Below are positions 4,405 through 34,444 of a DNA stretch of 64,000 bases, piece after piece. The stretch comes from a virus. Lineage: Duplodnaviria; Heunggongvirae; Uroviricota; Caudoviricetes. The notes below the pieces were generated by a model. The model was given only the letters and a program-made list of their open reading frames with translations, was not told the DNA's origin and searched no databases. Location: positions 108,810 to 172,809 of IMG/VR virus record IMGVR_UViG_3300042868_008486; one strand, given 5' to 3'. Position numbers and translations under genes: made by a program. Numbering within the stretch: the stretch's first letter is position 1; every line of letters begins with the position of its first letter.

Positions 4405-5910
4405 TTAAACCGTTTGTGATGCCAATTGTGTTAGACGTTCACGGATATCAGTTAAAGTCGTTTCGTTGTAGAATTCACCATCTTTGTAGATAGTTTTCAA
4501 CTCACCACGTTTTTCTGTGTCCCAACTAACTTTATCAGTTAATTGATACTCACCGAATGCGTCAGTAACACATAATAATCCTGTTGCAGATTTCTTAGTT
4601 CCGTCGTCAGTGATTGGGTCCTTGAAGATTTCTCTTCCTTCACCATTAACCTCAACATAAGTTGCTTTCATCGCGAAACCAAATGTGTCTCTTGTATTGT
4701 ATTGGTATGTGAATGAACCGATACCTAATACTACGTTTGTTGATGCGAATCCTTTCGCCTCCAATCTTTCACAGATTTCATCCGCTCTGTCAATAGTGAT
4801 TGAGTCACCATAGATTGCTCCGATGTGGGGGTCAAGAACTTTGTAACCTTGTTCATTAACTGTTCCTCCGAATACATCCCAAAGTAATTCAATTACTCCT
4901 TTATATTTTGGATGTGTTAAATCTAATTGTGCGTTCTCAACAACATCTCTATAATCTCGAGATATAACTTGTTCTCCACATAAGATATCTACAGGGTTTC
5001 CTGAGTCAGGACGAATAACTAATTTACCATCACGACCTAAGATTTCATCTTTTAATGTTACTAAGTGTTCGGTACATACTTTCCATAAGTCCCAAGTATC
5101 AGATACTACTGATAAGATACCTTTTGGATATGTCTCCAACAATCTTCGGAATGTTTCAATTTCATCTTCTTTACCACCAGCACACATTACTGAGTGTTCT
5201 GTTGCCGGTACTGAACCTCCAACAAATCCTGTTTCATTGTAGAAACGTCTCGCTCCGTAGATTGCTGGTAATGAGTCAGTTCCATTGAATGATGTCAAGT
5301 GACCTAACCCTGATGTGATTGTTGCGTCAGGTGAATCCAAACCTCTCATTGAGAAGTCGTGACCTTGCCACAATACAAACCCAACATTATCTTTATCTGT
5401 TTTCTCAGCCCACTTCGTTAACACTTTTTTGTATGTGTAAGCGATTGTTGCCGATGTCATAGGTTTCCATAACAAGTTTGAGATAATAGTCTCTAAGAAG
5501 TTAGGTAACCAATAGAAGTCAGGTAATGTATTATACACTGTCAATACAGGAACTTTGATTGGAACTAATGTCCCTTCCGTGATTGCTTTAACTGTGATTG
5601 GTAGATAACCCAAGTCGTGTAATTTCTCAATGTGTGTTGTATCATACTCAGTTCCTAAGTACAACGTTAACTCATTTTTGATTTCACGACAAACCGTTTC
5701 TTTCGGTTGATTGAAGAATCCTTCTTGAAAGAAAGAGTGAATGTTTTTCACCATCATTTGTTGTCCAAATGAAACTAATTGGTCACACCCTTTAGGTGCG
5801 TATTTGTTACTTCTTGGTGTGAAGTTTGAATACACTAATGTTGTTCCTTTAGGGTATTGTTCGTGATGCGATGTTTTGTACCCATCCGTTAATAAAAACG
5901 CGTTAATCAT
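4405..5910 (-). CDS. nadV: nicotinamide phosphoribosyltransferase family protein (NadV or Namat-like)
   Basis: 501 aa, NAMPT-like length and motifs (LLTDGYKTSHH, FNGTDSLPAIYGARRFY). Adjacent to a Prs-family gene. Confidence 0.8.
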   Translation of the reverse strand: MINAFLLTDGYKTSHHEQYPKGTTLVYSNFTPRSNKYAPKGCDQLVSFGQQMMVKNIHSFFQEGFFNQPKETVCREIKNELTLYLGTEYDTTHIEKLHDLGYLPITVKAITEGTLVPIKVPVLTVYNTLPDFYWLPNFLETIISNLLWKPMTSATIAYTYKKVLTKWAEKTDKDNVGFVLWQGHDFSMRGLDSPDATITSGLGHLTSFNGTDSLPAIYGARRFYNETGFVGGSVPATEHSVMCAGGKEDEIETFRRLLETYPKGILSVVSDTWDLWKVCTEHLVTLKDEILGRDGKLVIRPDSGNPVDILCGEQVISRDYRDVVENAQLDLTHPKYKGVIELLWDVFGGTVNEQGYKVLDPHIGAIYGDSITIDRADEICERLEAKGFASTNVVLGIGSFTYQYNTRDTFGFAMKATYVEVNGEGREIFKDPITDDGTKKSATGLLCVTDAFGEYQLTDKVSWDTEKRGELKTIYKDGEFYNETTLTDIRERLTQLASQTV

Positions 5911-5929
5911 AAATTATTTATTTTTTGGT

Positions 5930-6085
5930 TTATTGTAATACTTCAATTGAATAGGTTGTTTTCTCATCCCCAATTTCAAGGGTGTGAATTGTAAGTCCAA
6001 AGGATTCTAACACTTCACTAATTTTGTTAACCGTAGAAGCTTTATCACTCCCGTGAACTAGCTCAAATGTTTTTACTTCTTTCAT
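5930..6085 (-). CDS. small hypothetical protein (51 codons, MKEVKTFELVHGSDK...)
   Basis: Fills the gap between the NAMPT-like and Prs-like genes. Below the 60-aa track cutoff. Confidence 0.25.
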   Translation of the reverse strand: MKEVKTFELVHGSDKASTVNKISEVLESFGLTIHTLEIGDEKTTYSIEVLQ

Positions 6086-6103
6086 AATACAATATTAATT
6101 AAA

Positions 6104-7003
6104 TTATTTGAATACATCAAATCTTGTTACAAAATTTTCTACTTCTTCATTACTAATTGAGTTAGTTGTGAATATGTGTTCGAATGAATTTTTCAAATCA
6201 TCAAACCCTCTTGAGAAAATCCCGTGACTAACAATTAAGTAAATTTTGCCTGTGAAGTTTTCATTTTCTTTTATCGCTTTCGCAATATTAAGGAATGTCC
6301 CTCCACCATCACAGATATCATCAACAATGAATAAATCTTTATCCAACACATCATCAGTTAATGGGACAAGTGTTTTAGATAGTTTACCATCAATGTCTCG
6401 GTATTTTGAACATACCAAAACATCCTGATTAGATTTGAATGAGTCGTTAACTGAATACACTTTCTTCAACGCTCCGGCATCAGGTGAAACATAAACAACC
6501 TTAGACATATCACTAATGATTTGACCTGTCATCATCCAATATTTTTGTAACGAACTCCTAACCAAGTCAATGTTACCTGATTTACTGAAGTTTTGAAGAC
6601 AAGCCTCCAACACATCTGAATGGGGGTCAACAACAGTTACCTTGTCAAACCCTTGTAGGTTAATGATTGGGGCAATTACATCTTTAATATAATTCACACT
6701 ACCAATCGAAAACTTACGGTCACTCCTTGCCCCTAAGAAATAGGGAACATAGAGTTCAATTTTTTTAACACCCAAGTTTTTCAATGCTTGATTAGCACAA
6801 ACAATTAACTCAACATCTTTGAAGGAATTCATTCGACTTCTAATCTCAACCCCATCTTTGAAAAACTTCGACACATCATAAAAATCAGTTGGGTCCTGTA
6901 CTATAATATCAATGGATTGTTGTCCGTCAGGGAACTGACTAACTTTATACCTTAATCTACCTGACAATTTGTCAGTGTCTTGTCTTAAATCTAATACTAG
7001 CAT
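6104..7003 (-). CDS. prs: ribose-phosphate pyrophosphokinase family protein (Prs or Adps-like)
   Basis: PRPP-binding loop LFIVDDICDGGGT and VSPDAGALKKV motif. 299 aa. Confidence 0.8.
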   Translation of the reverse strand: MLVLDLRQDTDKLSGRLRYKVSQFPDGQQSIDIIVQDPTDFYDVSKFFKDGVEIRSRMNSFKDVELIVCANQALKNLGVKKIELYVPYFLGARSDRKFSIGSVNYIKDVIAPIINLQGFDKVTVVDPHSDVLEACLQNFSKSGNIDLVRSSLQKYWMMTGQIISDMSKVVYVSPDAGALKKVYSVNDSFKSNQDVLVCSKYRDIDGKLSKTLVPLTDDVLDKDLFIVDDICDGGGTFLNIAKAIKENENFTGKIYLIVSHGIFSRGFDDLKNSFEHIFTTNSISNEEVENFVTRFDVFK

Positions 7004-9038: not shown

Positions 9039-9527
9039 ATGAGCACAACTTCCGAGACTAAAGCTGAAAGAGACCCATTAACACCAAACCAAGTTAAAGG
9101 GATTAATATGGTTATTAAAGGTATTGGTAAAAAATACCCTTACGTTGTTGGGTGGGAAAAAAGTGAGGTATTCGATAAATACCAATCTCAAATGTTTATT
9201 AACTTAATAGTTGATATGACTAAATTTGCAAAATATTATAATTCACCAATTAAATCTTATTGGGTTGATGACTTAATTGAAGGTAGATATGATAGTATTG
9301 GTGGGGCTTTTTATCTTGTAAATTACGATGAAATACGTGATGATGCTTATGAAACAAAAAGAAAACTAGAAAATCGTATTAAAGACATTTATGTATTACT
9401 ACCTAAAGAATTTCAAGTTTTTGTTAAATGGTCAGGTGGTAGTTTTTTGTTACGTGACGATGAAGAATATTATAAATCCGTATCAAGTCTTGATATCCAC
9501 AGTTGTTTTGTTAAAATATTTAACTAA
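9039..9527 (+). CDS. hypothetical protein
   Basis: 162-aa plus-strand ORF diverging from the minus-strand train. AT-rich divergent intergenic region 8995-9038. Confidence 0.5.
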   Translation: MSTTSETKAERDPLTPNQVKGINMVIKGIGKKYPYVVGWEKSEVFDKYQSQMFINLIVDMTKFAKYYNSPIKSYWVDDLIEGRYDSIGGAFYLVNYDEIRDDAYETKRKLENRIKDIYVLLPKEFQVFVKWSGGSFLLRDDEEYYKSVSSLDIHSCFVKIFN

Positions 9528-9543
9528 CTTATTGTTTTAATTA

Positions 9544-9567
9544 GTTGCGGGATAGGATTCGAACCTA
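9544..9567 (-). ncRNA. tRNA-like 3' fragment (T-arm only, no partner acceptor strand found)
   Basis: ATAGG-ATTCGAA-CCTAC T-arm. No complementary 5' acceptor strand within 60-400 nt. Confidence 0.2.
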
Positions 9568-10002
9568 CATCATCGGATACTAACCTCCAATATGTTACCA
9601 CTTACACTACTCCGCTATACTACTGAATCCAATTCAGGTGGACTGAGAAATTGTATCTAAATCGTTTTCTTTTCTCACCTTACCACAGACCTCATATTGT
9701 CGACCATATGATTAATCCTGACTTTAAATAACATAGATAATGGTTCGGCCTTTTATGTCAGTCGCTCGACGTGTTATTACCCCAATATCCCAATTCCGTT
9801 CCCCCTAACTATATTGGGTTCCTTGCACCATACCCTCTAATATTGGAGTATGAGGCTGAACCCTCAAGGATTGGTAGCATCTATTGTTATGTTACTGTCT
9901 GCATTCAGTTCAGTAGTTAATTGTGATGAATCATTTACTCGGTCGCAGCCATACCATTCTTTCAGGTAGGTCCCCCTCGCTCTTATCATCATTGAGCCAC
10001 GT

Positions 10003-10078
10003 AGATAGGACAGGATTCGAACCTGTAACTCAACATCACCAGGACGGTTTCAGTTACCAATTACTATCACCTATCTAT
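10003..10078 (-). tRNA. tRNA-like gene, 76 nt, anticodon not assignable
   Basis: T-arm ACAGG-ATTCGAA-CCTGT. Perfect 7-bp acceptor (agatagg at 10003-10009 against cctatct at 10072-10078). D-loop contains TGG. Anticodon arm does not fold canonically by eye. Confidence 0.4.
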
Positions 10079-10193
10079 ATGTTGAGTTTCTTCATAACGG
10101 TACTCAACAAACCCTGCTTGCCAGTATTACATTTACTAACTACTATTATTCACATTCAATGTAACCCAAAGGTGGTCCGCCGTCATTGGTAGT

Positions 10194-10312
10194 AATCAGG
10201 GTGGGACTTGAACCCACAAGGTAACATTCGGCTTCAAGGCTCTCCTATATACCGTTCATAGGATGCAGTTACCACTTTACTCGTCTTATGCGTCTACCAA
10301 TTCCGCCACCTG
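10194..10312 (-). ncRNA. long tRNA-like RNA, family member a (119 nt)
   Basis: T-arm GTGGG-ACTTGAA-CCCAC. Acceptor AGTCAGG/CCTGATT with one G-U pair. 5' end AGTCAGGTGGCGGAATTGGTAGACGC matches the tRNA-Leu D-arm. Middle is about 35 nt too long for a type-II tRNA. Confidence 0.4.
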
Positions 10313-10444
10313 ACTATTTTTTATAATAACCCTTTATATAAAACGTAATATATAAAAAAACATACTCCAATTGTAATACATATAATAGTTGTTACTTGTG
10401 CTGCAGGATGTAAAGTTTCCATTTTATTTTATTTTAAAGTTAGT

Positions 10445-10519
10445 AGATAGGATTGGATTCGAACCAATGACGCATAATACAAATCAATGTACCCGCTCTG
10501 ACCTCTGAGCTACCCATCT
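10445..10519 (-). tRNA. tRNA-like gene, 75 nt
   Basis: Canonical UAGCUCAGAGGUCAGAGC D-arm. T-arm ATTGG-ATTCGAA-CCAAT. 7-bp acceptor with one G-U pair. Anticodon stem GUACA/UGUAU with a 6-nt loop, which is atypical. Confidence 0.45.
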
Positions 10520-10531
10520 ATATTTTTTTGT

Positions 10532-10640
10532 AGTCAAGACAGGAATCGAACCTGTGTATCATCAAAGTACTTTGATGGTATGTTTATACTTCATACCCTG
10601 CTTTTACCATAAAGGTGTGTGTCTACCATTCCACCACCTG
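10532..10640 (-). ncRNA. long tRNA-like RNA, family member b (109 nt)
   Basis: T-arm ACAGG-AATCGAA-CCTGT. Acceptor AGTCAGG/CTTGACT. Family 5' end AGTCAGGTGGTGGAATGGTAGAC. Confidence 0.4.
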
Positions 10641-10776
10641 ACTATATTTTTTGTTACTCAACCCCTCACGTCCTTTTACTCTTGGGGTTAAAGGTCTTGC
10701 GGACCACCATTACGGATTTATCATACTAGGAAGACGCTCAGTATATAAATCTTGCACCTCTCTGAAGTAACTTGTG

Positions 10777-10846
10777 GCTCAAGTGGGAATCGAACCCACA
10801 CCTTGATTTTTAGAGAATCCTATTCTAACCTTTTAACTATTGAACC
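10777..10846 (-). tRNA. tRNA-like gene, 70 nt
   Basis: T-arm GTGGG-AATCGAA-CCCAC. Acceptor GGTTCAA/TTGAGCC with one G-U pair. Possible anticodon loop UAGGAUU. Confidence 0.35.
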
Positions 10847-10961
10847 AAATTGTGACTGATGGTCGTCTAACACCTCGACTTTCGACTGATACAATTTTAC
10901 GTGTGCCCCACTCGGTCTATTTGTCACTGTCAGTTTTCAATCACAATTCAAATATAAGAAA

Positions 10962-11384
10962 TTATTTCTTTTCAGTCCAAACAATTTTATATTTTTCCCA
11001 ATTATTTTTTATTTCTTCTTGTAATGATTCGGTTAAACCTTTGTTTTCCAACACTTTACCATAGACAAAACTAATCACTCTATTAACACTCTTAAAGTGT
11101 TTAATACTTGTCCATTTCTTACCATAACCATCATAGAAGATACCTGTATAACTTTTAGTTATTAATTGAATGTAATTGTTATCAACTTCATACTTGAACA
11201 GTTCTTTTAATTTAACATCCAAATTATTTCCATCATCATCAATCTTAATGATTAAGATATATTCTTTATCTTCCAATGTTACAGGAATCGCATTCATTAT
11301 TGTTTTATCCTTCTTAAATAAGTGTAATTTTGTTTTATGAAGGTAATTCAATGTGTCTTGTTTAATTTGTTCTATTGTTTTCAT
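10962..11384 (-). CDS. hypothetical protein
   Basis: 140-aa ORF embedded in the tRNA-like array. Confidence 0.5.
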   Translation of the reverse strand: MKTIEQIKQDTLNYLHKTKLHLFKKDKTIMNAIPVTLEDKEYILIIKIDDDGNNLDVKLKELFKYEVDNNYIQLITKSYTGIFYDGYGKKWTSIKHFKSVNRVISFVYGKVLENKGLTESLQEEIKNNWEKYKIVWTEKK

Positions 11385-11385
11385 T

Positions 11386-11568
11386 TTAATTTATTTTAGC
11401 AATTATTTTATTATCCCCATCCGTTTCAATGGTTAACATACCCTTGAGTTTAATACTTCCCTTAGTATGGGGGTTATCGGGAGTTTCCTTAGTTGAAAAT
11501 CCAACACCTGTACTTACATCTACGTGATGAACATAATAAGTGTCTCCTCTACATTTGATTACCCACAT
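11386..11568 (-). CDS. hypothetical protein
   Basis: 60-aa ORF. Confidence 0.4.
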   Translation of the reverse strand: MWVIKCRGDTYYVHHVDVSTGVGFSTKETPDNPHTKGSIKLKGMLTIETDGDNKIIAKIN

Positions 11569-11655
11569 TGGAATTGTTGGGTCTTCAAGATGTTTCTTGT
11601 TAAAATGAAATACAATTTCACATTTTTTGTTAATCTACATCATAACTGTTTGTTT

Positions 11656-11970
11656 TTATTGTTTATTATAATTTTTTAATGCTAATGGTAACGACGCGGT
11701 TAATCGGTTTGTAATCTCATTGGATTCAAACGCAATTGATGTTAATTGATTATTTATGTCAGGTTCATAAAATGATGAAACACTAACATTCAAATCAGTT
11801 AATCGTTCTAATAAAATTTTAAGTTTGTTTTCGGTATCAATGGATAATGAAATAAGAAAATTGTTGTTCCATTGACGGGCTTTCTCAGGATGGTCTAACA
11901 TATACTGAGCAATCGAGTGTCCCGATTGAGCCATTTGATAACCCGGAGTTAAATCTCCTCTTGTTACCAC
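11656..11970 (-). CDS. peptidyl-tRNA hydrolase PTH2-like protein
   Basis: 104 aa. N-terminal VTRGDLTPGYQMAQSGHSIAQYM resembles the PTH2 R-x-DL...G...AQ..HA motif. Confidence 0.45.
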   Translation of the reverse strand: MVTRGDLTPGYQMAQSGHSIAQYMLDHPEKARQWNNNFLISLSIDTENKLKILLERLTDLNVSVSSFYEPDINNQLTSIAFESNEITNRLTASLPLALKNYNKQ

Positions 11971-12031
11971 ATAAAGTTTTTGTATCTAATTGTTTTTCAT
12001 AATAATATAAATATAATCAATAATTTTTTGT

Positions 12032-12229
12032 TGTCAAGAGAGGACTCGAACCTCTATGAATTATAATTGATGTTAGTTGGCACTCTCAGAGAGGATATCG
12101 CTTATTATTTTCATCAACCTTATTGGAATGTATTACGTAACGGCTATTTACCCAACTTGTGTACCGTAATCTTCTGCCCATTCCATTCTAACCGCAGCCG
12201 TTTAGCGTCACCCTTTCCGCCACTTGACT
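12032..12229 (-). ncRNA. long tRNA-like RNA, family member c (about 198 nt)
   Basis: T-arm AGAGG-ACTCGAA-CCTCT at 12039-12055. Family 5' end AGTCAAGTGGCGGAAAGGGTGACGC at 12205-12229. Acceptor 6 of 7. No other T-arm in between. Confidence 0.3.
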
Positions 12230-12384
12230 AAAAATGACTTTACCTTACAAAGTCTAAGTAGGTTTAGTTGAGGACTTTCAAATCTTAATCGTCTATATGA
12301 CTCCTTCCTCTCAGTGTATCGTTTATTTACTCGTCGGGCATAGTATCTGAGTTTTCTGTGTGCTGCCATCACACTTACAATCGT

Positions 12385-12500
12385 AGCCAGAACAAGATTC
12401 GAACTTGTAAGACACAGTAATACAGTACTGCGTCATCCCTGTATGGATATGTGCGTCTACCAACGAGCGAGGACACCCCACTCCATTCCGCCACCTGACT
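12385..12500 (-). ncRNA. long tRNA-like RNA, family member d (116 nt)
   Basis: T-arm ACAAG-ATTCGAA-CTTGT. Acceptor AGTCAGG/TCTGGCT with two G-U pairs. D-region carries an insertion (GGAATGGAGTGGGGTGTCCTCGCTCGTTGGTAGACGC). Confidence 0.35.
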
Positions 12501-12671
12501 AAAAATGTGTGTTTTTAAATTATCCCTAGAACACACAAACTATGCCGACATACGATTCGGAGAGCGTCCACGCCAACATATGTGTAAACCCGAAGGTCTT
12601 TTTATTTCAACCCATATCTGTAATCTCTATCTTCGTTCCTTAGCGGTGCACCACTAGAGGGCTAATTCAGT

Positions 12672-12785
12672 AGTCAGGACAGGACTCGAACCTGTTCGAT
12701 TTCACCGTAGGACGTAACGAGACTGCTACTTTCAGAGTGTTACTATATCCCCTCACCTCTGCGTCTACCCATCCGCCACCTGACT
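12672..12785 (-). ncRNA. long tRNA-like RNA, family member e (114 nt)
   Basis: T-arm ACAGG-ACTCGAA-CCTGT. Perfect 7-bp acceptor AGTCAGG/CCTGACT. 5' end AGTCAGGTGGCGGATGGGTAGACGC. Discriminator A, no encoded CCA. Confidence 0.45.
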
Positions 12786-12867
12786 CGGACTCGAACCGTT
12801 GAAAACACACACCTTTCAGTGCCAACAAAACCCTGACCCCAAAGTTTTATTGTCAGTCGCCAGGGTA

Positions 12868-12977
12868 GGACTCGAACCTACACCCTATGACTTGTACCTC
12901 ACCATAGGGACTTACGTTGTTTTTAAAAGAGTGGTATCACCCCACTGTAGCGTCTAACCAATTCCGCCACCTGACTT
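12868..12977 (-). ncRNA. long tRNA-like RNA, family member f (110 nt)
   Basis: T-arm GTAGG-ACTCGAA-CCTAC. Acceptor 6 of 7. 5' end AGTCAGGTGGCGGAATTGGTTAGACGC. Confidence 0.4.
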
Positions 12978-13062
12978 GTTACTTAGGCGAATATACTCAA
13001 ATGCGGTACACTTAGATTTCCAATTCAATACGCCACTTGTATAAAGAGCCTTATAACCAAAT

Positions 13063-13152
13063 TTGAGGTTGAGAACCTCTGTGTTGTAGTGCTTAAATCT
13101 GTCCACTCATATTCTTGTTTCCTTCTCAAGGGAACAACACAAATAATCAGTC
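13063..13152. repeat. direct repeat copy 1 (GAGGTTGAGAACCTCTGTGTTGTAG ... TTCTCAAGGGAACAACAC)
   Basis: Imperfectly repeated at 13236-13340. Each copy holds the hairpins GAGGTT-GAG-AACCTC and TTCC-TTCTCAAG-GGAA. Confidence 0.6.
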
Positions 13153-13235
13153 GCTCGCTTTAGAGTCAGTCGCCCATTGTATAGCAACGCATATACAAAG
13201 GACAACACAGGAATCTTTGTACCTGTACTGATTAT

Positions 13236-13340
13236 TGTTTGAGGTTGAGAACCTCTGTGTTGTAGGGTACTATTCTCCCTTAACCCTCTTTAGCATCATA
13301 CATTCCTTTCTCAAGGGAACAACACAATAATAAATCCCTG
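13236..13340. repeat. direct repeat copy 2
   Basis: Shares the 25-mer gaggttgagaacctctgtgttgtag and ctttctcaagggaacaacaca with copy 1. Confidence 0.6.
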
Positions 13341-13638
13341 TACTCTCAGTAAGTAATGTTATAGATAGGCCCAAACCCCTATCCTCCGTAGCTCAACTAT
13401 TTATTTCAACCACTCAAATTACCTTATGAGATTTATGTCTATTTCAAGTATATTGTTATAACATCTAACCCCTAAACAACTACACTCTGAATGTGTATAT
13501 CTCCCATACTTCGCTCCCATCCCTATTCTACGATAGGTGAGTCCCATAGCAAAATCTGTTTAGTCATTAGCAGGGGAATAATATTTAAAATGGTGACTAC
13601 TCCCTCAGAGCTACCAACCCGCACCAATGAATTGATAC

Positions 13639-13662
13639 GAGCTAGGGAGGACTCGAACCTCC
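13639..13662 (-). ncRNA. tRNA-like 3' fragment (T-arm GGAGG-ACTCGAA-CCTCC), partner strand not found
   Basis: Canonical T-arm, no complementary 5' acceptor. The 7-mer just before the T-stem (gagctag) recurs directly upstream as gagctac. Confidence 0.2.
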
Positions 13663-13675
13663 AAGTCACCATTTT

Positions 13676-13699
13676 AATCGACATAGGACTTGAACCTAT
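13676..13699 (-). ncRNA. tRNA-like 3' fragment (T-arm ATAGG-ACTTGAA-CCTAT), partner strand not found
   Basis: The 7-mer before the T-stem (aatcgac) is repeated directly at 13733-13739 rather than inverted. Confidence 0.2.
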
Positions 13700-13755
13700 A
13701 CGGGAGCACCTATAACCCTCCAATCGACTATTTAATATTTCAAAGAACTTTTAGA

Positions 13756-13831
13756 ATCTGAGGTGGGAATCGAACCCACACTAAGTCAACCTTTACAGGA
13801 TTTGGAACCACTCCTCATTACGCTCTCAGAT
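13756..13831 (-). tRNA. tRNA-like gene, 76 nt
   Basis: T-arm GTGGG-AATCGAA-CCCAC. Perfect 7-bp acceptor (atctgag / ctcagat). Internal arms not canonical by eye. Confidence 0.4.
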
Positions 13832-13854
13832 TTCCTTTCAACAAATATAGTAAT

Positions 13855-14271
13855 TTATTTTTGTTCTGACCTAATAATTTCAATTAATTTATCAATACAT
13901 TCAGATTCAGCTTCAGGATATGTTCTATATAATAAAGAATATTGTCCAATCGTATTTTCCCACCCCCATTCTTCTGAAGCTAAATCATTTGGATTACCAA
14001 AAAAACGTGTGTAGGTATAACAGAATTTAGGTTCTGTCGTACAATCAGTTAATATCTCAGGGAATATCTTATGTGTATCTCTAAACCATTGGAAAACCTG
14101 TGATTTAAGTGGTGCGATTGTATATGTTTCATCACCAACACCATTCATATAAAATGTATGTTTACCGTCTTTTTTATATAATGAACATTCACTCCCAAAC
14201 CAACTATACTTAATATACCCCAATTCTTTAAGTAATAAGGCTTGGTCATATGTGACAAATAAATCTACCAT
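13855..14271 (-). CDS. hypothetical protein
   Basis: 138-aa ORF. Confidence 0.5.
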   Translation of the reverse strand: MVDLFVTYDQALLLKELGYIKYSWFGSECSLYKKDGKHTFYMNGVGDETYTIAPLKSQVFQWFRDTHKIFPEILTDCTTEPKFCYTYTRFFGNPNDLASEEWGWENTIGQYSLLYRTYPEAESECIDKLIEIIRSEQK

Positions 14272-14309: not shown

Positions 14310-14633
14310 ATGGGTTATGTGTATTTAATTGTTGAGTGGGGTTCAACACCTGAGCGATACAAATTGGGTATCACAAAGAACGACCCTAAACTACGATTAA
14401 AAACCCATCAAACTTCAAACCCCCACGAACTAGTCTTAATACGGACATATAAGTCGGAACATTACCACAAGATTGAATCTTGGATGAAACGTGAATATTT
14501 CATATATGGTCAAGAGGGTGGAACCGAATGGTTTGAATTACCCTCTGAGATTGCATCTAATTTCACCCAAGAATGTAAACGTATTGAGGACGTGTTTAAC
14601 GACCTAATAAAAAGTGGTAACCCTTTTATTTAG
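14310..14633 (+). CDS. T5orf172/GIY-YIG-like domain protein
   Basis: YVYLIVEWG...YKLGITKND...RLKTHQ...EWFELP pattern typical of the T5orf172 (MUG113) family. Confidence 0.5.
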   Translation: MGYVYLIVEWGSTPERYKLGITKNDPKLRLKTHQTSNPHELVLIRTYKSEHYHKIESWMKREYFIYGQEGGTEWFELPSEIASNFTQECKRIEDVFNDLIKSGNPFI

Positions 14634-15161: not shown

Positions 15162-15395
15162 TTAAACATTAAATCCTTCATCTGTGTCTTCTATTATTAA
15201 TTTTGTTAATTTTTCTGATATGTTTCTCATATCGGATAATAAATCATTATTATCAATACCATCCAATTGTTTGAATAAGTGAACGTAACCCATATTGATA
15301 TGGTCCAACGCAGCCTCAAACCCTGATGTGTAATTTTTAGCGTCTTCAATAAGACGGTCCATTATTAATTCTTCTTCAGATTTCTCCTTTTCCAT
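15162..15395 (-). CDS. hypothetical protein
   Basis: 77-aa ORF. Confidence 0.4.
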   Translation of the reverse strand: MEKEKSEEELIMDRLIEDAKNYTSGFEAALDHINMGYVHLFKQLDGIDNNDLLSDMRNISEKLTKLIIEDTDEGFNV

Positions 15396-15539
15396 TTTCT
15401 AACCACTCATTAAATTTTTTAGTGAAGACTTTTGAAAATTCTTTCTTCATCTTCTTTTTTTTCTTACGAGGCATATTCCCCAAGTCATACATTTCAGGAA
15501 ATATGGTTATCGCAGCCCCCAAAGGTATTTGTATCTTCC

Positions 15540-33868: not shown

Positions 33869-34303
33869 TCAAATACCACGCATCATTTCACGATTAATAT
33901 CTCTCTCTTTGATTGAATTTCGTTTATCGTATAAGTTTTTACCTTTAGCCAAAACAATTTCCATTTTGATTAACCCACGTTCATTTCGAAAAAGACGATA
34001 TGGGACAATCGTTAAACCATTAATTAATTCTTTTTCTAATTTCCTTAACTCCTTTTTCTTCATTAAGAGTTTACGTTCCCGGTTAGACTCGTGACTATAT
34101 GCAACATTATTACTCGTAACATTCATTCCTTTAACAAATAACTCACCTTTATTAAAATAACAATAGGTATCCACCATTGAAACTAAGTTGTTGGTAATTG
34201 CTTTAACTTCAGACCCTTGGAGTTTTAACCCAACGATAAATGTCTCAACAAAGTGATATTCAAACTTAACCTTTCGGTTTACTATGTTAACGGAATTTTT
34301 CAT
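33869..34303 (-). CDS. smpB: SsrA-binding protein SmpB
   Basis: NRKVKFEYHFVETFIVGLKLQGSEVKAI ... ERKLLMKKKELRKLE...IVLAKGKNLYDKR align block-for-block with bacterial SmpB. Likely start is the internal ATG at 34303. The track ORF extends to 34366 through a hairpin. Confidence 0.75.
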   Translation of the reverse strand: MKNSVNIVNRKVKFEYHFVETFIVGLKLQGSEVKAITNNLVSMVDTYCYFNKGELFVKGMNVTSNNVAYSHESNRERKLLMKKKELRKLEKELINGLTIVPYRLFRNERGLIKMEIVLAKGKNLYDKRNSIKERDINREMMRGI

Positions 34304-34325
34304 ATGAACAAATATAATAAAAAAA

Positions 34326-34358
34326 CCCCAATAAAGATTTACTCTATTGGGATTTTTT
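34326..34358. terminator. hairpin plus T-run, terminator or attenuator
   Basis: CCCAATA-11 nt-TATTGGG, then TTTTTTT on plus and an A-run before it. Upstream of SmpB on minus. Confidence 0.4.
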
Positions 34359-34444
34359 TCAACCATAGTAAGAAAGGGGTTAATGGTATTTTGTGTAAAA
34401 TATAAATATTACTAAATTTTAAAAAGTTTTAGATATTTATCATT

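What the first reader, a model, noticed from the sequence alone, without database searches (positions are those of the whole stretch)
9540..13850. tRNA-like array containing a PTH2-like peptidyl-tRNA hydrolase gene
- A roughly 4.3-kb stretch is elevated in GC and carries at least ten T-arm-bearing tRNA-like genes on the minus strand.
- Inside it lie three small CDSs. One (11656-11970) has the R-x-DL...G...AQ..HA signature of PTH2-type peptidyl-tRNA hydrolases.
- SmpB is encoded 20 kb away. Together these point to a phage investment in translation rescue.
- Several of the 70-76-nt genes have perfect acceptor and T-arms but non-canonical D and anticodon arms. One has a 6-nt anticodon loop. tRNA identities could not be assigned by eye and need software.
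Basis: partly seen in the sequence, partly recalled or inferred. Interest (0 to 1): 0.6.

Follow-up and report, generated by a model that had tools for sequence, protein, structure and literature searches.

The report
Amber-gated Pth2 gene amid anticodon-less tRNA mimics
This phage region holds only one true tRNA, an amber suppressor; beside it sit a peptidyl-tRNA-hydrolase-like gene that can only be translated by reading through a conserved UAG just after its start codon, and a dozen tRNA-shaped RNAs that have no anticodon arm and so cannot decode.

Summary
There are 13 exact T-arm motifs on the minus strand of 9540-13850 (0.26 expected), GC is raised, three small CDSs are present, and SmpB lies 20 kb away.

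(1) Only one element is a canonical tRNA: tRNA(CUA), an amber suppressor (10775-10846). The other twelve keep an acceptor stem and T arm but lack a normal anticodon arm. Six belong to a tRNA-Leu-derived family found in at least 119 uncultured-phage contigs. Its ends are near-constant and it carries a hypervariable 26-150-nt insert. It is absent from cultured phages, and in the genome collection it occurs only on five short MAG contigs. It retains what bacterial LeuRS and tRNA-processing enzymes need. Its function is unknown.

(2) The 104-aa ORF has a PTH2 fold (Foldseek top 13 hits, TM about 0.7). Its real start is ATG at 12000, followed by an in-frame TAG at codon 5. That start-proximal TAG is present in 76 of 77 informative metagenomic homologues. 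It is always followed by a purine. A tRNA(CUA) lies nearby in 58 of 80 loci, against 0 of 119 control loci. The next gene and a third gene at 15162-15410 also begin M-x-TAG.

The local sequence shows no general TAG recoding. The best reading is a suppressor-tRNA-gated set of genes led by a Pth2-like hydrolase, lying next to a cassette-like array of non-decoding tRNA-like RNAs.

The parts
10775..10846 (-). tRNA(CUA), amber suppressor; the only canonical tRNA in the window
   Evidence: ARAGORN anticodon cta. Rfam tRNA 57.1 bits, full canonical alignment. Related suppressors lie next to PTH2-like genes in L120 and L122.
11656..12000 (-). PTH2-fold (peptidyl-tRNA hydrolase 2-like) gene, 114 codons, ATG at 12000-11998, in-frame TAG at 11988-11986 (codon 5): MKNN[TAG]IQKLYVVTRGDL...
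   Evidence: Translation. Profile against PDB Pth2, E=8.5e-4. AF2 model and Foldseek. The same TAG is present in L149 at DNA level and in 76 of 77 metagenomic homologues.
11386..11643 (-). 85-codon partner gene, MM[TAG]INKKCEIVFHFNKKH...; second amber-start gene; function unknown
   Evidence: The same M-x-[TAG] start occurs in L120, L122, L123, L124 and L149, and in 10 of the metagenomic loci. No PHROG or Pfam hit.
10962..11384 (-). 140-aa ORF, third gene of the cassette, no in-frame TAG, function unknown
   Evidence: Syntenic 139-aa gene in L149. No family hit.
12031..12229 (-). E8: 199-nt tRNA(Leu)-like RNA with a roughly 150-nt insert, immediately upstream of the PTH2-like gene
   Evidence: Acceptor AGTCAAG/CTTGACA, Leu-type D arm, T arm. 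The orthologue in L149 shows compensatory changes in the T stem and in insert helices.
12384..12500 (-). E7: tRNA(Leu)-like family member with a 22-nt hairpin inserted in the D loop and no anticodon arm
   Evidence: Covariance model R1, 51.5 bits, E=1e-10. 96.6% identical copy in L131.
12671..12785 (-). E6: tRNA(Leu)-like family member, 115 nt
   Evidence: R1 57.4 bits, E=3.6e-12. Fold.
12776..12860 (-). E5: spacer element with a degenerate T arm and pseudoknot-like complementarity (CTGAC..AAAAC..GTCAG..GTTTT)
   Evidence: Conserved in L131.
12857..12976 (-). E4: tRNA(Leu)-like family member, 120 nt
   Evidence: R1 49 bits, E=4.3e-10. Insert is identical in L131 and L134.
10531..10643 (-). E10: tRNA(Leu)-like family member, 113 nt
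   Evidence: R1 57.2 bits. The Rfam tRNA model matches only by skipping 54 nt.
10193..10315 (-). E12: tRNA(Leu)-like family member, 123 nt
   Evidence: R1 57.1 bits. Fold.
10002..10076 (-). E13: 75-nt tRNA-like RNA with the family T arm, acceptor AGATAGG/CCTATCT, and no canonical anticodon arm
   Evidence: R1 36.2 bits. Rfam tRNA 33.5 bits with the anticodon region skipped.
10444..10519 (-). E11: 76-nt tRNA-like RNA with normal acceptor, D and T arms but a 6-nt anticodon loop
   Evidence: ARAGORN 2-nt anticodon. Fold. Rfam 45.7 bits.
9544..9617 (-). E14: tRNA-like RNA with an 8-nt anticodon loop (4-nt 'anticodon' ttag) and an imperfect acceptor stem
   Evidence: The L134 orthologue has a loop 3 nt shorter, so the loop is not under canonical constraint.
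13755..13831 (-). E1: 77-nt tRNA-like RNA without a D arm. Conserved core GAGCGTAATGAGG..GGTTCCAAATCC..AAAGGTTG, found with other acceptor stems in other phages
   Evidence: Rfam tRNA only 22 bits, below gathering. Alignment A4.
13636..13722 (-). E3: element with two T-arm-like hairpins; unclear
   Evidence: The L134 orthologue is called tRNA-Leu(caa) of 93 nt by ARAGORN.
13059..13329 (-). Two copies (13240-13329 and 13059-13141) of a roughly 90-nt conserved motif in which two hairpin loops are complementary to each other
   Evidence: Homologues in six other viral loci. No Rfam match.
15162..15410 (-). Third amber-start gene in the window: MSG[TAG]KMEKEKSEEEL..., 82 codons
   Evidence: The same TAG is present in the orthologues in L131 and L134.
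33869..34366 (-). SmpB (tmRNA-binding ribosome-rescue factor). No tmRNA gene was found in the window
   Evidence: Pfam SmpB E=2.9e-41. ARAGORN and Rfam find no tmRNA.

Best explanation
The stretch is an RNA and translation-control island of an uncultured large phage, read on the minus strand. It has two separable parts.

(A) A suppressor-gated cassette. The order is tRNA-like E8, then a Pth2-like gene, then an 85-codon partner, then a 140-aa ORF, then tRNA(CUA). The first two genes begin ATG-x(1-3)-UAG. Release factor 1 would therefore end them after a two- to five-residue peptide, unless the neighbouring amber-suppressor tRNA reads the UAG. So the Pth2-like hydrolase and its partner are made only once the phage suppressor is active. 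The hydrolase then most likely recycles peptidyl-tRNAs that arise when suppression and read-through disturb translation. SmpB fits the same rescue theme.

(B) Around the cassette lies a cassette-like array of twelve tRNA-shaped RNAs that cannot decode because they lack an anticodon arm. Six are members of a phage-specific family derived from tRNA-Leu. They keep the acceptor stem, A73, the D/T elbow, U at -1 and C74. These are the features RNase P, CCA addition and bacterial LeuRS need. The anticodon and variable arms are replaced by a hypervariable structured insert. They are probably processed, stabilised and possibly leucylated like tRNAs. The insert would then be the working part, with an unknown target.

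Shown: the anatomy, the fold, conservation of the UAG, its linkage to tRNA(CUA), and the absence of anticodon arms.
Inferred: read-through as a gate, the hydrolase activity and its substrates, and processing, charging and function of the tRNA-like RNAs.
For: (A) Suppressor-gated cassette
- The in-frame TAG is seen at DNA level in the window and in L149, L152-155, L120-L126, L128, L156, L158, L159 and a Lak megaphage.
- In 80 metagenomic loci, 76 of 77 informative genes have a TAG within 14 codons upstream of the T-R-x-D strand, and 75 also have an in-frame ATG upstream. The nearest ATG is 1-4 codons before the TAG in 67 of 75. There are 53 distinct N-termini. The next base is a purine in 75 of 75.
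- All other Gln codons in these genes are CAA or CAG, 5-9 per gene.
- tRNA(CUA) occurs in 58 of 80 such loci, and in 32 of 37 loci of at least 4 kb. It occurs in 0 of 119 control viral loci, which hold 273 tRNAs.
- ATG-proximal TAG followed by at least 60 codons: 86 cases, against 19 for TAA and 16 for TGA, although TAG is the rarest of the three trinucleotides.
- The partner gene and the gene at 15162-15410 have the same start, conserved in relatives.
- There is no general TAG recoding locally. TAG ends 6 ORFs of at least 100 aa. Treating TAG as sense lengthens ORFs by 8.6%, against 24% for the TGA control.
- PTH2 fold. Mycobacteriophage homologues are annotated as peptidyl-tRNA hydrolase.

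(B) Non-decoding tRNA-like array
- T-arm statistics.
- ARAGORN and Rfam results.
- The family occurs in at least 119 IMG/VR loci.
- 96 unique members are 77-170 nt long, and only 16 are called by ARAGORN.
- A canonical anticodon arm is found in 9 of 102 members, against 5.2 +/- 2.1 in shuffles, and at the canonical position in only 1.
- A model built only from other phages finds five window members at 49-57 bits.
- Flanks: U(-1) in 76 of 95, A73 in 80 of 96, C74 in 89 of 95. U48 in 102 of 107.
- Deleting the whole anticodon stem-loop lowers tRNA affinity for bacterial LeuRS only 2.5-fold and is dispensable for charging, while A73 and the elbow are critical (PMC2377443).
- Orthologous inserts carry compensatory changes.
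Against: - No experiment. Read-through, the inserted amino acid, hydrolase activity and expression of the RNAs are all untested.
- The catalytic Lys of the archaeal Pth2 GKGK motif aligns with Tyr (PGYQ) in this family, so the chemistry or substrate may differ.
- The window protein alone misses the Pfam PTH2 threshold, at 13 bits against 23.
- The rest of the genome is unseen. The phage could use TAG=Gln widely in late genes, which would make the gate less special.
- The 5' half of the RNA family is invariant partly because it was the search pattern.
- Insert folding energies are only mildly below shuffles (mean z -1.07).
- No target, antisense match or constant protein partner was found for the inserts.
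Confidence: 0.6

Rival explanations
1. This is an ordinary phage tRNA array. The elements are decoding tRNAs, some with introns or unusual loops, that supplement codons rare in the host. The PTH2-like gene is a passenger.
For: T arms, acceptor stems and often D arms are perfect. Five reach the Rfam tRNA gathering score. Related phages carry 13-29 canonical tRNAs in the same neighbourhood. ARAGORN in intron mode can force tRNA calls.
Against: Only one element has a canonical anticodon arm. Across 102 family members, anticodon arms are no more frequent than in shuffles. Inserts are 26-150 nt and sit at varied places, including the D loop. That is too short for group I introns, and Rfam finds none. 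Bacteria have no tRNA splicing endonuclease (established knowledge). The intron-mode calls give arbitrary anticodons and intron positions from 30 to 39.
Confidence: 0.07
2. The tRNA-like elements are decaying pseudogenes of a formerly functional tRNA array, with no function.
For: Anticodon regions are aberrant. Degenerate fragments of the 5' half occur in spacers (D8). The array's content differs between close relatives.
Against: Decay would hit all arms equally. Instead, acceptor and T stems pair perfectly, and elbow nucleotides, U(-1), A73 and C74 are kept. The same architecture recurs in at least 119 contigs. The orthologue of E4 is 98.5% identical in L131 and its insert is identical in L131 and L134, where flanking proteins are 69-90% identical. 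Compensatory changes occur in stems of orthologues.
Confidence: 0.08
3. The constant tRNA top half is the active part. The RNAs would be baits or sponges for host factors that recognise the acceptor/T-arm/elbow, such as tRNA-targeting defence nucleases or acetyltransferase toxins, LeuRS, EF-Tu or RNase P. Alternatively they would be non-decoding Leu acceptors that work with SmpB and the Pth2-like hydrolase. The inserts would matter little.
For: The top half is conserved while the middle is hypervariable. Of 107 inserts, 78 have no relative in the set. LeuRS determinants are retained. SmpB and a Pth2-like gene lie in the same phage. Content turns over quickly between relatives, as is typical of conflict loci.
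Against: Inserts are longer than a normal anticodon plus variable arm, not minimised. Orthologous inserts are conserved with compensatory changes. PTH2-like genes occur in only 2 of the 119 family loci. There is no G3:U70 or tmRNA-like D region that would suggest SmpB binding.
Confidence: 0.2
4. The in-frame TAG is not a regulatory gate. These phages simply use genetic code 15 (TAG=Gln), and the N-terminal TAG is an inherited Gln codon of no special meaning.
For: Source pipelines translated these genes with TAG=Q. Lak megaphages, which carry a homologue with the TAG, are reported to use recoded TAG. The suppressor tRNA is present.
Against: In the genes tabulated at DNA level (6, 9) there is exactly one in-frame TAG per gene, except in L126. 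It always lies at the same place, 1-3 codons before strand 1, across 53 distinct N-termini down to about 40% identity. All other Gln codons are CAA or CAG. The TAG was never replaced by CAA or CAG in 76 of 77 genes. Start-proximal TAG is more than 10-fold enriched over TAA and TGA after normalising. The local sequence shows no general recoding.
Confidence: 0.15

Closest known systems
Pth2 / PF01981 peptidyl-tRNA hydrolase 2 (archaeal MJ0051, SSO Pth2; human Bit1/PTRH2)
   Same: Same alpha/beta fold over the whole length, TM about 0.7. The profile matches 2zv3. The N-terminal V-V-x-R-x-D-L strand and the A-Q-x-x-H helix motif are shared. An acidic residue in the E-P-D motif aligns with the DAG region.
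   Different: About 20% identity. The GKGK loop is replaced by P-G-Y-Q, so Lys becomes Tyr at the position aligned with the catalytic Lys. The H-T-Q segment is deleted. The gene is phage-borne and starts with an in-frame UAG. Activity is untested.
Stop-codon-recoded phages and their 'code-change modules' (suppressor tRNA, tRNA synthetase, release factor) used to time late and lysis genes (bioRxiv 10.1101/2021.08.26.457843; PMC9523058; PMC10879173)
   Same: A phage-encoded amber suppressor tRNA. In-frame TAG makes expression depend on the suppressor. The idea that recoding times gene expression is shared.
   Different: Here there is a single TAG placed 1-4 codons after the start of a few small genes, in an otherwise standard-code neighbourhood. 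The genes are not lysis or structural genes. The lead gene is a Pth2-like hydrolase. That paper mentions no peptidyl-tRNA hydrolase, tmRNA or SmpB.
Lambda bar minigenes and Pth (two-codon ORFs whose translation releases peptidyl-tRNA and is toxic when Pth is limiting); recalled from the literature, not tested here
   Same: AUG-NNN-stop mini-ORFs in a phage, functionally tied to peptidyl-tRNA hydrolase. The commonest leader here is AUG-AAA-UAG.
   Different: Here the mini-ORF is fused in frame to the hydrolase gene itself, and a cognate suppressor tRNA is encoded next to it. No evidence for drop-off was obtained.
Phage T4 species 1 and 2 RNAs (rnaC, rnaD): stable RNAs of unknown function inside the T4 tRNA cluster
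   Same: Non-decoding stable RNAs of 119-139 nt in a phage tRNA cluster next to a homing endonuclease. rnaC ends with a T arm (CCGGGUUCGAAUCCCGG) plus a partial acceptor pairing, around an insert of about 100 nt. R1 gives it a weak hit of 25 bits.
   Different: No sequence relationship beyond generic tRNA features. T4 has one of each. Here there is a multi-copy family with a constant tRNA-Leu top half and hypervariable inserts across more than 100 phages.
tmRNA tRNA-like domain with SmpB
   Same: Acceptor stem and T arm without an anticodon arm, with a large structured insert. SmpB is encoded by the same phage.
   Different: No G3:U70, a normal D stem is present, and there is no tag reading frame. 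ARAGORN and Rfam tmRNA models find nothing.
Minimal tRNA-Leu substrates of bacterial LeuRS, and engineered 'tRNA scaffolds' for expressing foreign RNAs (the latter from memory)
   Same: Exactly the parts dispensable for leucylation (anticodon arm and variable-arm sequence) are the ones replaced. A73, U8-A14, G18G19-U55C56 and U48 are kept. The architecture equals an RNA insert displayed on a tRNA body.
   Different: This is a natural, phage-encoded family. Charging and processing have not been shown.

Membership tests
Pth2 (PF01981) | Pth2 alpha/beta fold | tested here: met
   AF2 model of the 95%-identical P0001 (pLDDT 83, pTM 0.77). The Foldseek PDB top 13 hits are all Pth2 family, with probability 1.0 and TM 0.6-0.75. 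The next hit has E=0.4.
Pth2 (PF01981) | Sequence match above the curated Pfam threshold | tested here: inconclusive
   The window protein scores 13.1 bits against a cut-off of 23, E=0.12, though PTH2 is its best Pfam hit. Homologues P0002 and P0003 carry precomputed PF01981 hits marked weak. The family profile against 2zv3 gives E=8.5e-4 over the full length.
Pth2 (PF01981) | Catalytic residues (Lys of the GKGK loop, Asp/Thr of the DAGxT segment; recalled from S. solfataricus Pth2 studies) | tested here: inconclusive
   In the HMM alignment the Lys position aligns with Tyr (P-G-Y-Q). The invariant E-P-D aligns with the D-A-G region. The H-T-Q segment is deleted.
Pth2 (PF01981) | Hydrolysis of peptidyl-tRNA | not testable with these tools
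   Needs an enzyme assay or complementation of pth(ts).
Canonical tRNA (RF00005) | Cloverleaf with a 5-bp anticodon stem and a 7-nt loop (U33, R37) | tested here: not met
   Met only by 10775-10846. The other twelve elements have 6- or 8-nt loops or no anticodon arm at all. Family-wide the figure is 9 of 102 against 5.2 expected, with 1 at the right position.
Canonical tRNA (RF00005) | Acceptor stem, T arm, D/T elbow nucleotides | tested here: met
tRNA with group I intron | Group I intron core (over 200 nt, P3-P9) in the anticodon loop | tested here: not met
   No Rfam match even at E<=10. Inserts are 26-150 nt and one lies in the D loop.
tmRNA | tRNA-Ala-like domain (G3:U70), tag ORF, pseudoknots | tested here: not met
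   ARAGORN, including relaxed -m mode, and Rfam find none in the window. The acceptor has U3-A70.
Theta / HDV-like ribozymes next to phage tRNAs | Nested double pseudoknot P1-P2-P3-P1.1-P4 with a catalytic C in J4/2, cleavage site at a tRNA end | tested here: not met
   No HDV-clan Rfam hit. The 90-nt motif has a P1-like pairing and a P4-like hairpin. By inspection of alignment A2 it has no P2 partner and no C after the hairpin.
Code-15 (TAG=Gln) recoded phage | Amber suppressor tRNA encoded | tested here: met
Code-15 (TAG=Gln) recoded phage | TAG abandoned as a stop and frequent in frame within many genes | tested here: not met
   In this 64-kb window TAG ends 6 ORFs of at least 100 aa. Treating TAG as sense adds 8.6% ORF length, against 24% for the TGA control. 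Relatives behave likewise. The rest of the genome was not available.
Phage tRNA(Leu)-like scaffold RNA family (defined here) | 5' AGTCAGG-TG-GCGGAAnnGGTAGACGC, a variable insert, then 3' ACAGGTTCGAATCCTGT-CCTGACT-A | tested here: met
   Six window elements fit the descriptor. Five score 49-57 bits with a model built only from other phages.

The most novel reading that the evidence does not exclude
Two linked novelties may be present.

(1) A single UAG placed right after the start codon marks a small regulon whose translation is switched on by a phage amber-suppressor tRNA. Its members are a Pth2-like hydrolase, its 85-aa partner and a few other genes. This would be a checkpoint form of genetic-code switching. 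It would be distinct from genome-wide recoding, with the hydrolase either buffering the suppression or feeding back on it.

(2) The surrounding AGTCAGG...CCTGACTA elements would be a new class of phage small RNAs. They would be natural tRNA scaffolds that are processed and perhaps leucylated like tRNA-Leu, while displaying a hypervariable library of structured inserts. The inserts would be exchanged among phages as cassettes, for example to bind or disarm host factors.
Probability: 0.35. Interest if true: 0.9.

Novelty: new variant of a known kind. Interest (0 to 1): 0.78.

Why it matters
If the start-proximal UAG is a gate, this is a compact natural device in which a suppressor tRNA acts as a translational activator of chosen genes. 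It would tie code switching in phages to peptidyl-tRNA recycling and ribosome rescue. The main recoding survey consulted here does not mention that connection.

It also exposes an annotation trap. With the standard code these genes are truncated or started at GTG. With code 15 the UAG is silently shown as Q.

The tRNA-Leu-like family shows that many 'pseudo' or 'undetermined' tRNAs in phage arrays may be a distinct class of stable non-decoding RNAs. It offers more than 100 natural examples of RNA inserts carried on a tRNA body. That bears on the 50-year-old question of what T4 species 1 and 2 RNAs are for, and it is of practical interest for RNA scaffold design.

Tried and rejected
- **Known RNA families.** Rfam found nothing but tRNA, at gathering score on the whole window and at E<=10 on 9300-14100, and in 12 family loci.
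- **tmRNA.** None found with ARAGORN default or relaxed mode.
- **Introns.** ARAGORN intron mode gives arbitrary calls, so this was rejected.
- **HDV/theta ribozyme reading of the 90-nt motif.** Rejected by inspection of alignment A2.
- **Antisense or guide function of the inserts.** No match to the window beyond shuffles. No spacer-like matches in 1.6 Mb of phage loci.
- **A constant protein partner of the RNA family.** The best protein cluster occurs in only 10 of 119 loci. PTH2-like genes occur in only 2 of 119.
- **Mimicry of a host tRNA-Leu.** The pattern occurs in only 5 short MAG contigs among 185,579 species genomes, and in no cultured phage.
- **General TAG recoding of the region.** Not supported.
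- **Large structured RNA at 13330-13640.** Folding z is only -1. Its high identity to L134 may just reflect recent shared ancestry.
- **Bacteroidota promoter motif TAnnTTTG.** Not significantly enriched, 52 against 43 +/- 7, although copies lie just upstream of E1 and of the suppressor tRNA.
- **Similar cultured phages.** No DNA match for the region, and none for a 568-aa protein.
- **Literature.** Searches found no description of the RNA family or of amber-start Pth2 genes. The library is incomplete.

Full report
**Context.** The window is part of a large, uncultured phage with 33% GC. Genes are densely packed on the minus strand and read well in the standard code. They include NAMPT and PRPP synthetase, DnaJ, a sigma-70 factor, methylases and SmpB. 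Nothing similar exists among 50,697 cultured or deposited phage records, either for the DNA of the region or for a 568-aa protein.

- The T-arm consensus GGTTCRANTCC occurs 13 times in 64 kb. All copies are on the minus strand between 9555 and 13776, against 0.26 expected.
- A 14th T arm with a variant sequence lies at 12384-12500.
- GC is 0.376 in the stretch, and 0.404 without its coding block, against 0.325 elsewhere.
- SmpB is at 33869-34366.
- The element with a 6-nt anticodon loop is 10444-10519.

**What the tRNA-like elements are.**
- ARAGORN calls only four genes. One has a 4-nt anticodon, one a 2-nt anticodon, one is tRNA(CUA), and one is a doubtful Tyr.
- The Rfam tRNA model reaches its threshold five times. 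Only tRNA(CUA), 10775-10846, aligns canonically, at 57 bits. The others match by skipping the anticodon region, in one case 54 nt of it.
- No other Rfam family matches even at E<=10.
- Pairing analysis and folding show perfect 7-bp acceptor stems and 5-bp T stems, and mostly good D arms. The central parts are aberrant.

**Six elements share one design.** E4, E6, E7, E8, E10 and E12 share the 5' end AGTCAGG-TG-GCGGAAnnGGTAGACGC. This is a tRNA-Leu-type acceptor and D arm. They close with a T arm plus CCTGACT-A and are 113-199 nt long.

**This is a large phage family.**
- A scan of IMG/VR with the 25-nt 5' pattern hit at least 119 contigs before reaching its cap.
- Ninety-six unique members close with ACAGGTTCGAATCCTGT-CCTGACT-A. 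The 3' half was not part of the search pattern, so its near-invariance is real. The invariance of the 5' half is partly by construction.
- Total length is 77-170 nt, and the middle is 26-119 nt and unalignable.
- ARAGORN recognises only 16 of the 96, with scattered anticodons.
- A canonical anticodon arm occurs in 9 of 102 members, against 5.2 +/- 2.1 in shuffles. It sits at the canonical position in one only, and that one is a genuine tRNA-Leu(GAG).
- A covariance model built from 33 members of other phages finds the window's E6, E10, E12, E7 and E4 at 49-57 bits (E 4e-12 to 4e-10), E13 at 36 bits and E11 at 24 bits.
- The pattern is absent from cultured phages.
- Among 185,579 species genomes it occurs only on five short MAG contigs, from Flavobacterium (twice), Chitinophagaceae, Peregrinibacteria and Neisseriaceae. 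It is therefore phage-specific and not a copy of a host tRNA.

**What the family conserves.**
- U at -1 in 76 of 95, A73 in 80 of 96, C74 in 89 of 95.
- U48 in 102 of 107.
- The U8, A14, G18G19 and T-loop elbow nucleotides.
- The last helix of the insert usually ends 2 nt before the T stem, like a class II variable arm.
- For bacterial LeuRS, A73 and the elbow are critical. Deleting the whole anticodon stem-loop lowers tRNA affinity only 2.5-fold and is dispensable for charging (PMC2377443).
- So the family keeps what processing enzymes and LeuRS need, and replaces what they do not need.

**The inserts look functional, but their role is unknown.**
- Most have no relative among the 107 examined (78 singletons).
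- Orthologous inserts are conserved. E4's orthologue is 98.5% identical in L131, and its insert is identical in L131 and L134, phages whose flanking proteins are 69-90% identical to the window's.
- They carry compensatory changes. Examples are L100/L107/L131c and E8 against L149, in both the T stem and insert helices.
- They are not antisense to the window.
- They have no spacer-like matches in 1.6 Mb of phage DNA.
- They have no constant protein neighbour.
- Array content turns over between close relatives. The interval is 1.2 kb in L131 and 4.3 kb here.
- The closest classical analogue is T4 species 1 RNA (rnaC). It is a 139-nt stable RNA of unknown function in the T4 tRNA cluster and ends in a T arm.

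**The PTH2-like gene.**
- Alone, the 104-aa ORF gives PTH2 as its best Pfam hit, but below threshold (E=0.12). It gives nothing in the PDB.
- A profile of 14 homologues hits M. jannaschii Pth2 over its full length (E=8.5e-4).
- An AlphaFold model (pLDDT 83) has Pth2-family structures as its top 13 Foldseek hits, followed by a clean gap.
- Homologues in cluster C mycobacteriophages are annotated as peptidyl-tRNA hydrolase, and Lak megaphages have one too.
- The fold claim is therefore supported.
- The catalytic Lys of the GKGK loop aligns with Tyr, so activity is an inference.

**The unexpected feature: a conserved start-proximal UAG.**
- The database homologues show Q at that place. At DNA level every one of them has TAG. 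Their source pipelines had used code 15.
- In 80 further metagenomic loci, 76 of 77 informative genes have a TAG 1-3 codons before the first strand. Seventy-five also have an in-frame ATG, usually 1-4 codons upstream. The commonest leader is MK[TAG]VKLVTVTR.
- There are 53 distinct N-termini, and a purine follows the TAG in 75 of 75.
- In the genes tabulated at DNA level, this TAG is the only in-frame one, except in L126, which has a second.
- All other Gln codons in these genes are CAA or CAG.
- A tRNA(CUA) lies on the same fragment in 58 of 80 loci, and in 32 of 37 loci of at least 4 kb. It makes up half of all tRNAs called there. None of 273 tRNAs in 119 control phage loci is a CUA tRNA.

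**Other genes share the same start.**
- The gene downstream of the PTH2-like gene starts the same way. In the window it is MM[TAG]INKKCEIVFHFNKKH, and L120, L122, L123, L124 and L149 do likewise.
- So does a third window gene at 15162-15410, which is conserved in L131 and L134.
- Across the 80 loci, ATG-proximal TAG followed by at least 60 codons occurs 86 times on the gene strand. TAA does so 19 times and TGA 16 times, although TAG is the rarest of the three.
- The neighbourhood itself is not recoded. TAG ends six ORFs of at least 100 aa in the window. Treating TAG as sense gains less than the TGA control, both here and in relatives.

**Mechanism proposed.** The suppressor tRNA acts as a translational switch for a few genes marked by a UAG just after the start. 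Placing it there means that without suppression only a two- to five-residue peptide is made.

The lead gene is a Pth2-like hydrolase. That fits a need created by suppression itself, since read-through and drop-off produce peptidyl-tRNAs. The phage SmpB points the same way.

The AUG-NNN-UAG leader also resembles lambda bar minigenes, whose effect depends on Pth. That comparison is recalled from the literature and not tested, so feedback is conceivable.

Shown: the codon, its conservation, its linkage to tRNA(CUA), and the fold. Inferred: read-through, its timing, and the enzyme's activity and substrates.

The main survey of phage recoding describes code-change modules made of a suppressor tRNA, a synthetase and a release factor. 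It mentions no peptidyl-tRNA hydrolase, tmRNA or SmpB. I found no description of either feature, in a library that is incomplete.

**Verdict.** The finding is real and more interesting than stated, but it is not a codon-supplementing tRNA array. It consists of one amber suppressor tRNA, a suppressor-gated Pth2-like cassette, and a set of non-decoding tRNA-like RNAs. Six of these belong to a widespread, undescribed, phage-specific tRNA-Leu-derived family. Both features are new variants of known kinds, namely stop-codon recoding as regulation and tRNA-like stable RNAs. Both are directly testable.

Noticed in passing
window 13240-13329 and 13059-13141 (-); also L134 6725-6810, L070, L087, L022, L053, L042: A roughly 90-nt conserved RNA-like motif: GTGTTGTTCCCTTGAGAAAGGAA, a variable hairpin, then CTACAACACAGAGG-TTCTCAA-CCTCAA. 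GTGTTG pairs with CAACAC, and the loops of two hairpins (TTGAGAA and TTCTCAA) are complementary. It is not in Rfam. In L022 it ends 4 nt before a tRNA(Leu)-like element.
   Followed up: partly
window 15162-15410 (-); L131 6856-7104; L134 4945-5193: A third small gene starts with a conserved in-frame amber codon (MSG[TAG]KMEKEKSEEEL...). It lies 1.3 kb beyond the array. Its function is unknown.
   Followed up: partly
proteins P0001-P0007 and P0011: Public protein collections show Q where the DNA has TAG, because source pipelines applied code 15 to these short contigs. Other pipelines truncate the same gene at an internal Met (P0008-P0010). Either way the amber codon is invisible at protein level.
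   Followed up: yes
window 9540-13850 versus L131 8430-9660 and L134 6100-7460: Close relatives carry different subsets of the tRNA-like elements between the same flanking genes. L131 lacks the PTH2 cassette and the 750-nt segment 12976-13726, and has two other family members instead. The array behaves like a cassette hot spot.
   Followed up: partly
window 13330-13640 and 9620-10000 (-): These are non-coding stretches 84-95% identical to L134, with no Rfam match. For the one stretch that was folded (13330-13640), the folding energy is unremarkable (z about -1). They may be further RNAs or just recently shared DNA.
   Followed up: partly
window 14310-14633 (+): A T5orf172/MUG113 (GIY-YIG-like) endonuclease gene lies right next to the array on the opposite strand. 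This recalls SegB in the T4 tRNA cluster. Relatives have HNH and GIY-YIG genes in their arrays.
   Followed up: no
window 12861, 13174, 9766 (-) and 12776-12860: The motif GCGACTGAC occurs three times after tRNA-like 3' ends. The spacer element E5 has crossing complementarities (CTGAC..AAAAC..GTCAG..GTTTT), and a similar sequence is found in L131 after another family member.
   Followed up: no
window 13849-13842 and 10981-10949 (-): Bacteroidota-type promoter boxes occur here. TATATTTG lies 11-18 nt upstream of E1, and TTTG-N-TAnnTTTG lies upstream of tRNA(CUA). Together with the MAG bins that hold the RNA family (Flavobacterium, Chitinophagaceae), this hints at a Bacteroidota host. The motif is not significantly enriched in the window.
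   Followed up: partly
L122 16036-16455; L123 2927-3365: Related phages with the same PTH2-like/tRNA(CUA) module encode their own tmRNA and up to 28 tRNAs. This window has SmpB but no tmRNA gene.
   Followed up: no
window 4405-7003 (-): NAD salvage genes lie a few kb from the array: nicotinamide phosphoribosyltransferase (PHROG E=1e-197) and ribose-phosphate pyrophosphokinase.
   Followed up: no
L218 (metagenome contig BS_KBA_SWE02_21mDRAFT_10013321): This is the one homologue with TAA instead of TAG at the conserved position (MK[TAA]VKLVTVTR), and no tRNA(CUA) lies on the fragment. It could be an ochre variant or an inactivated gene.
   Followed up: no
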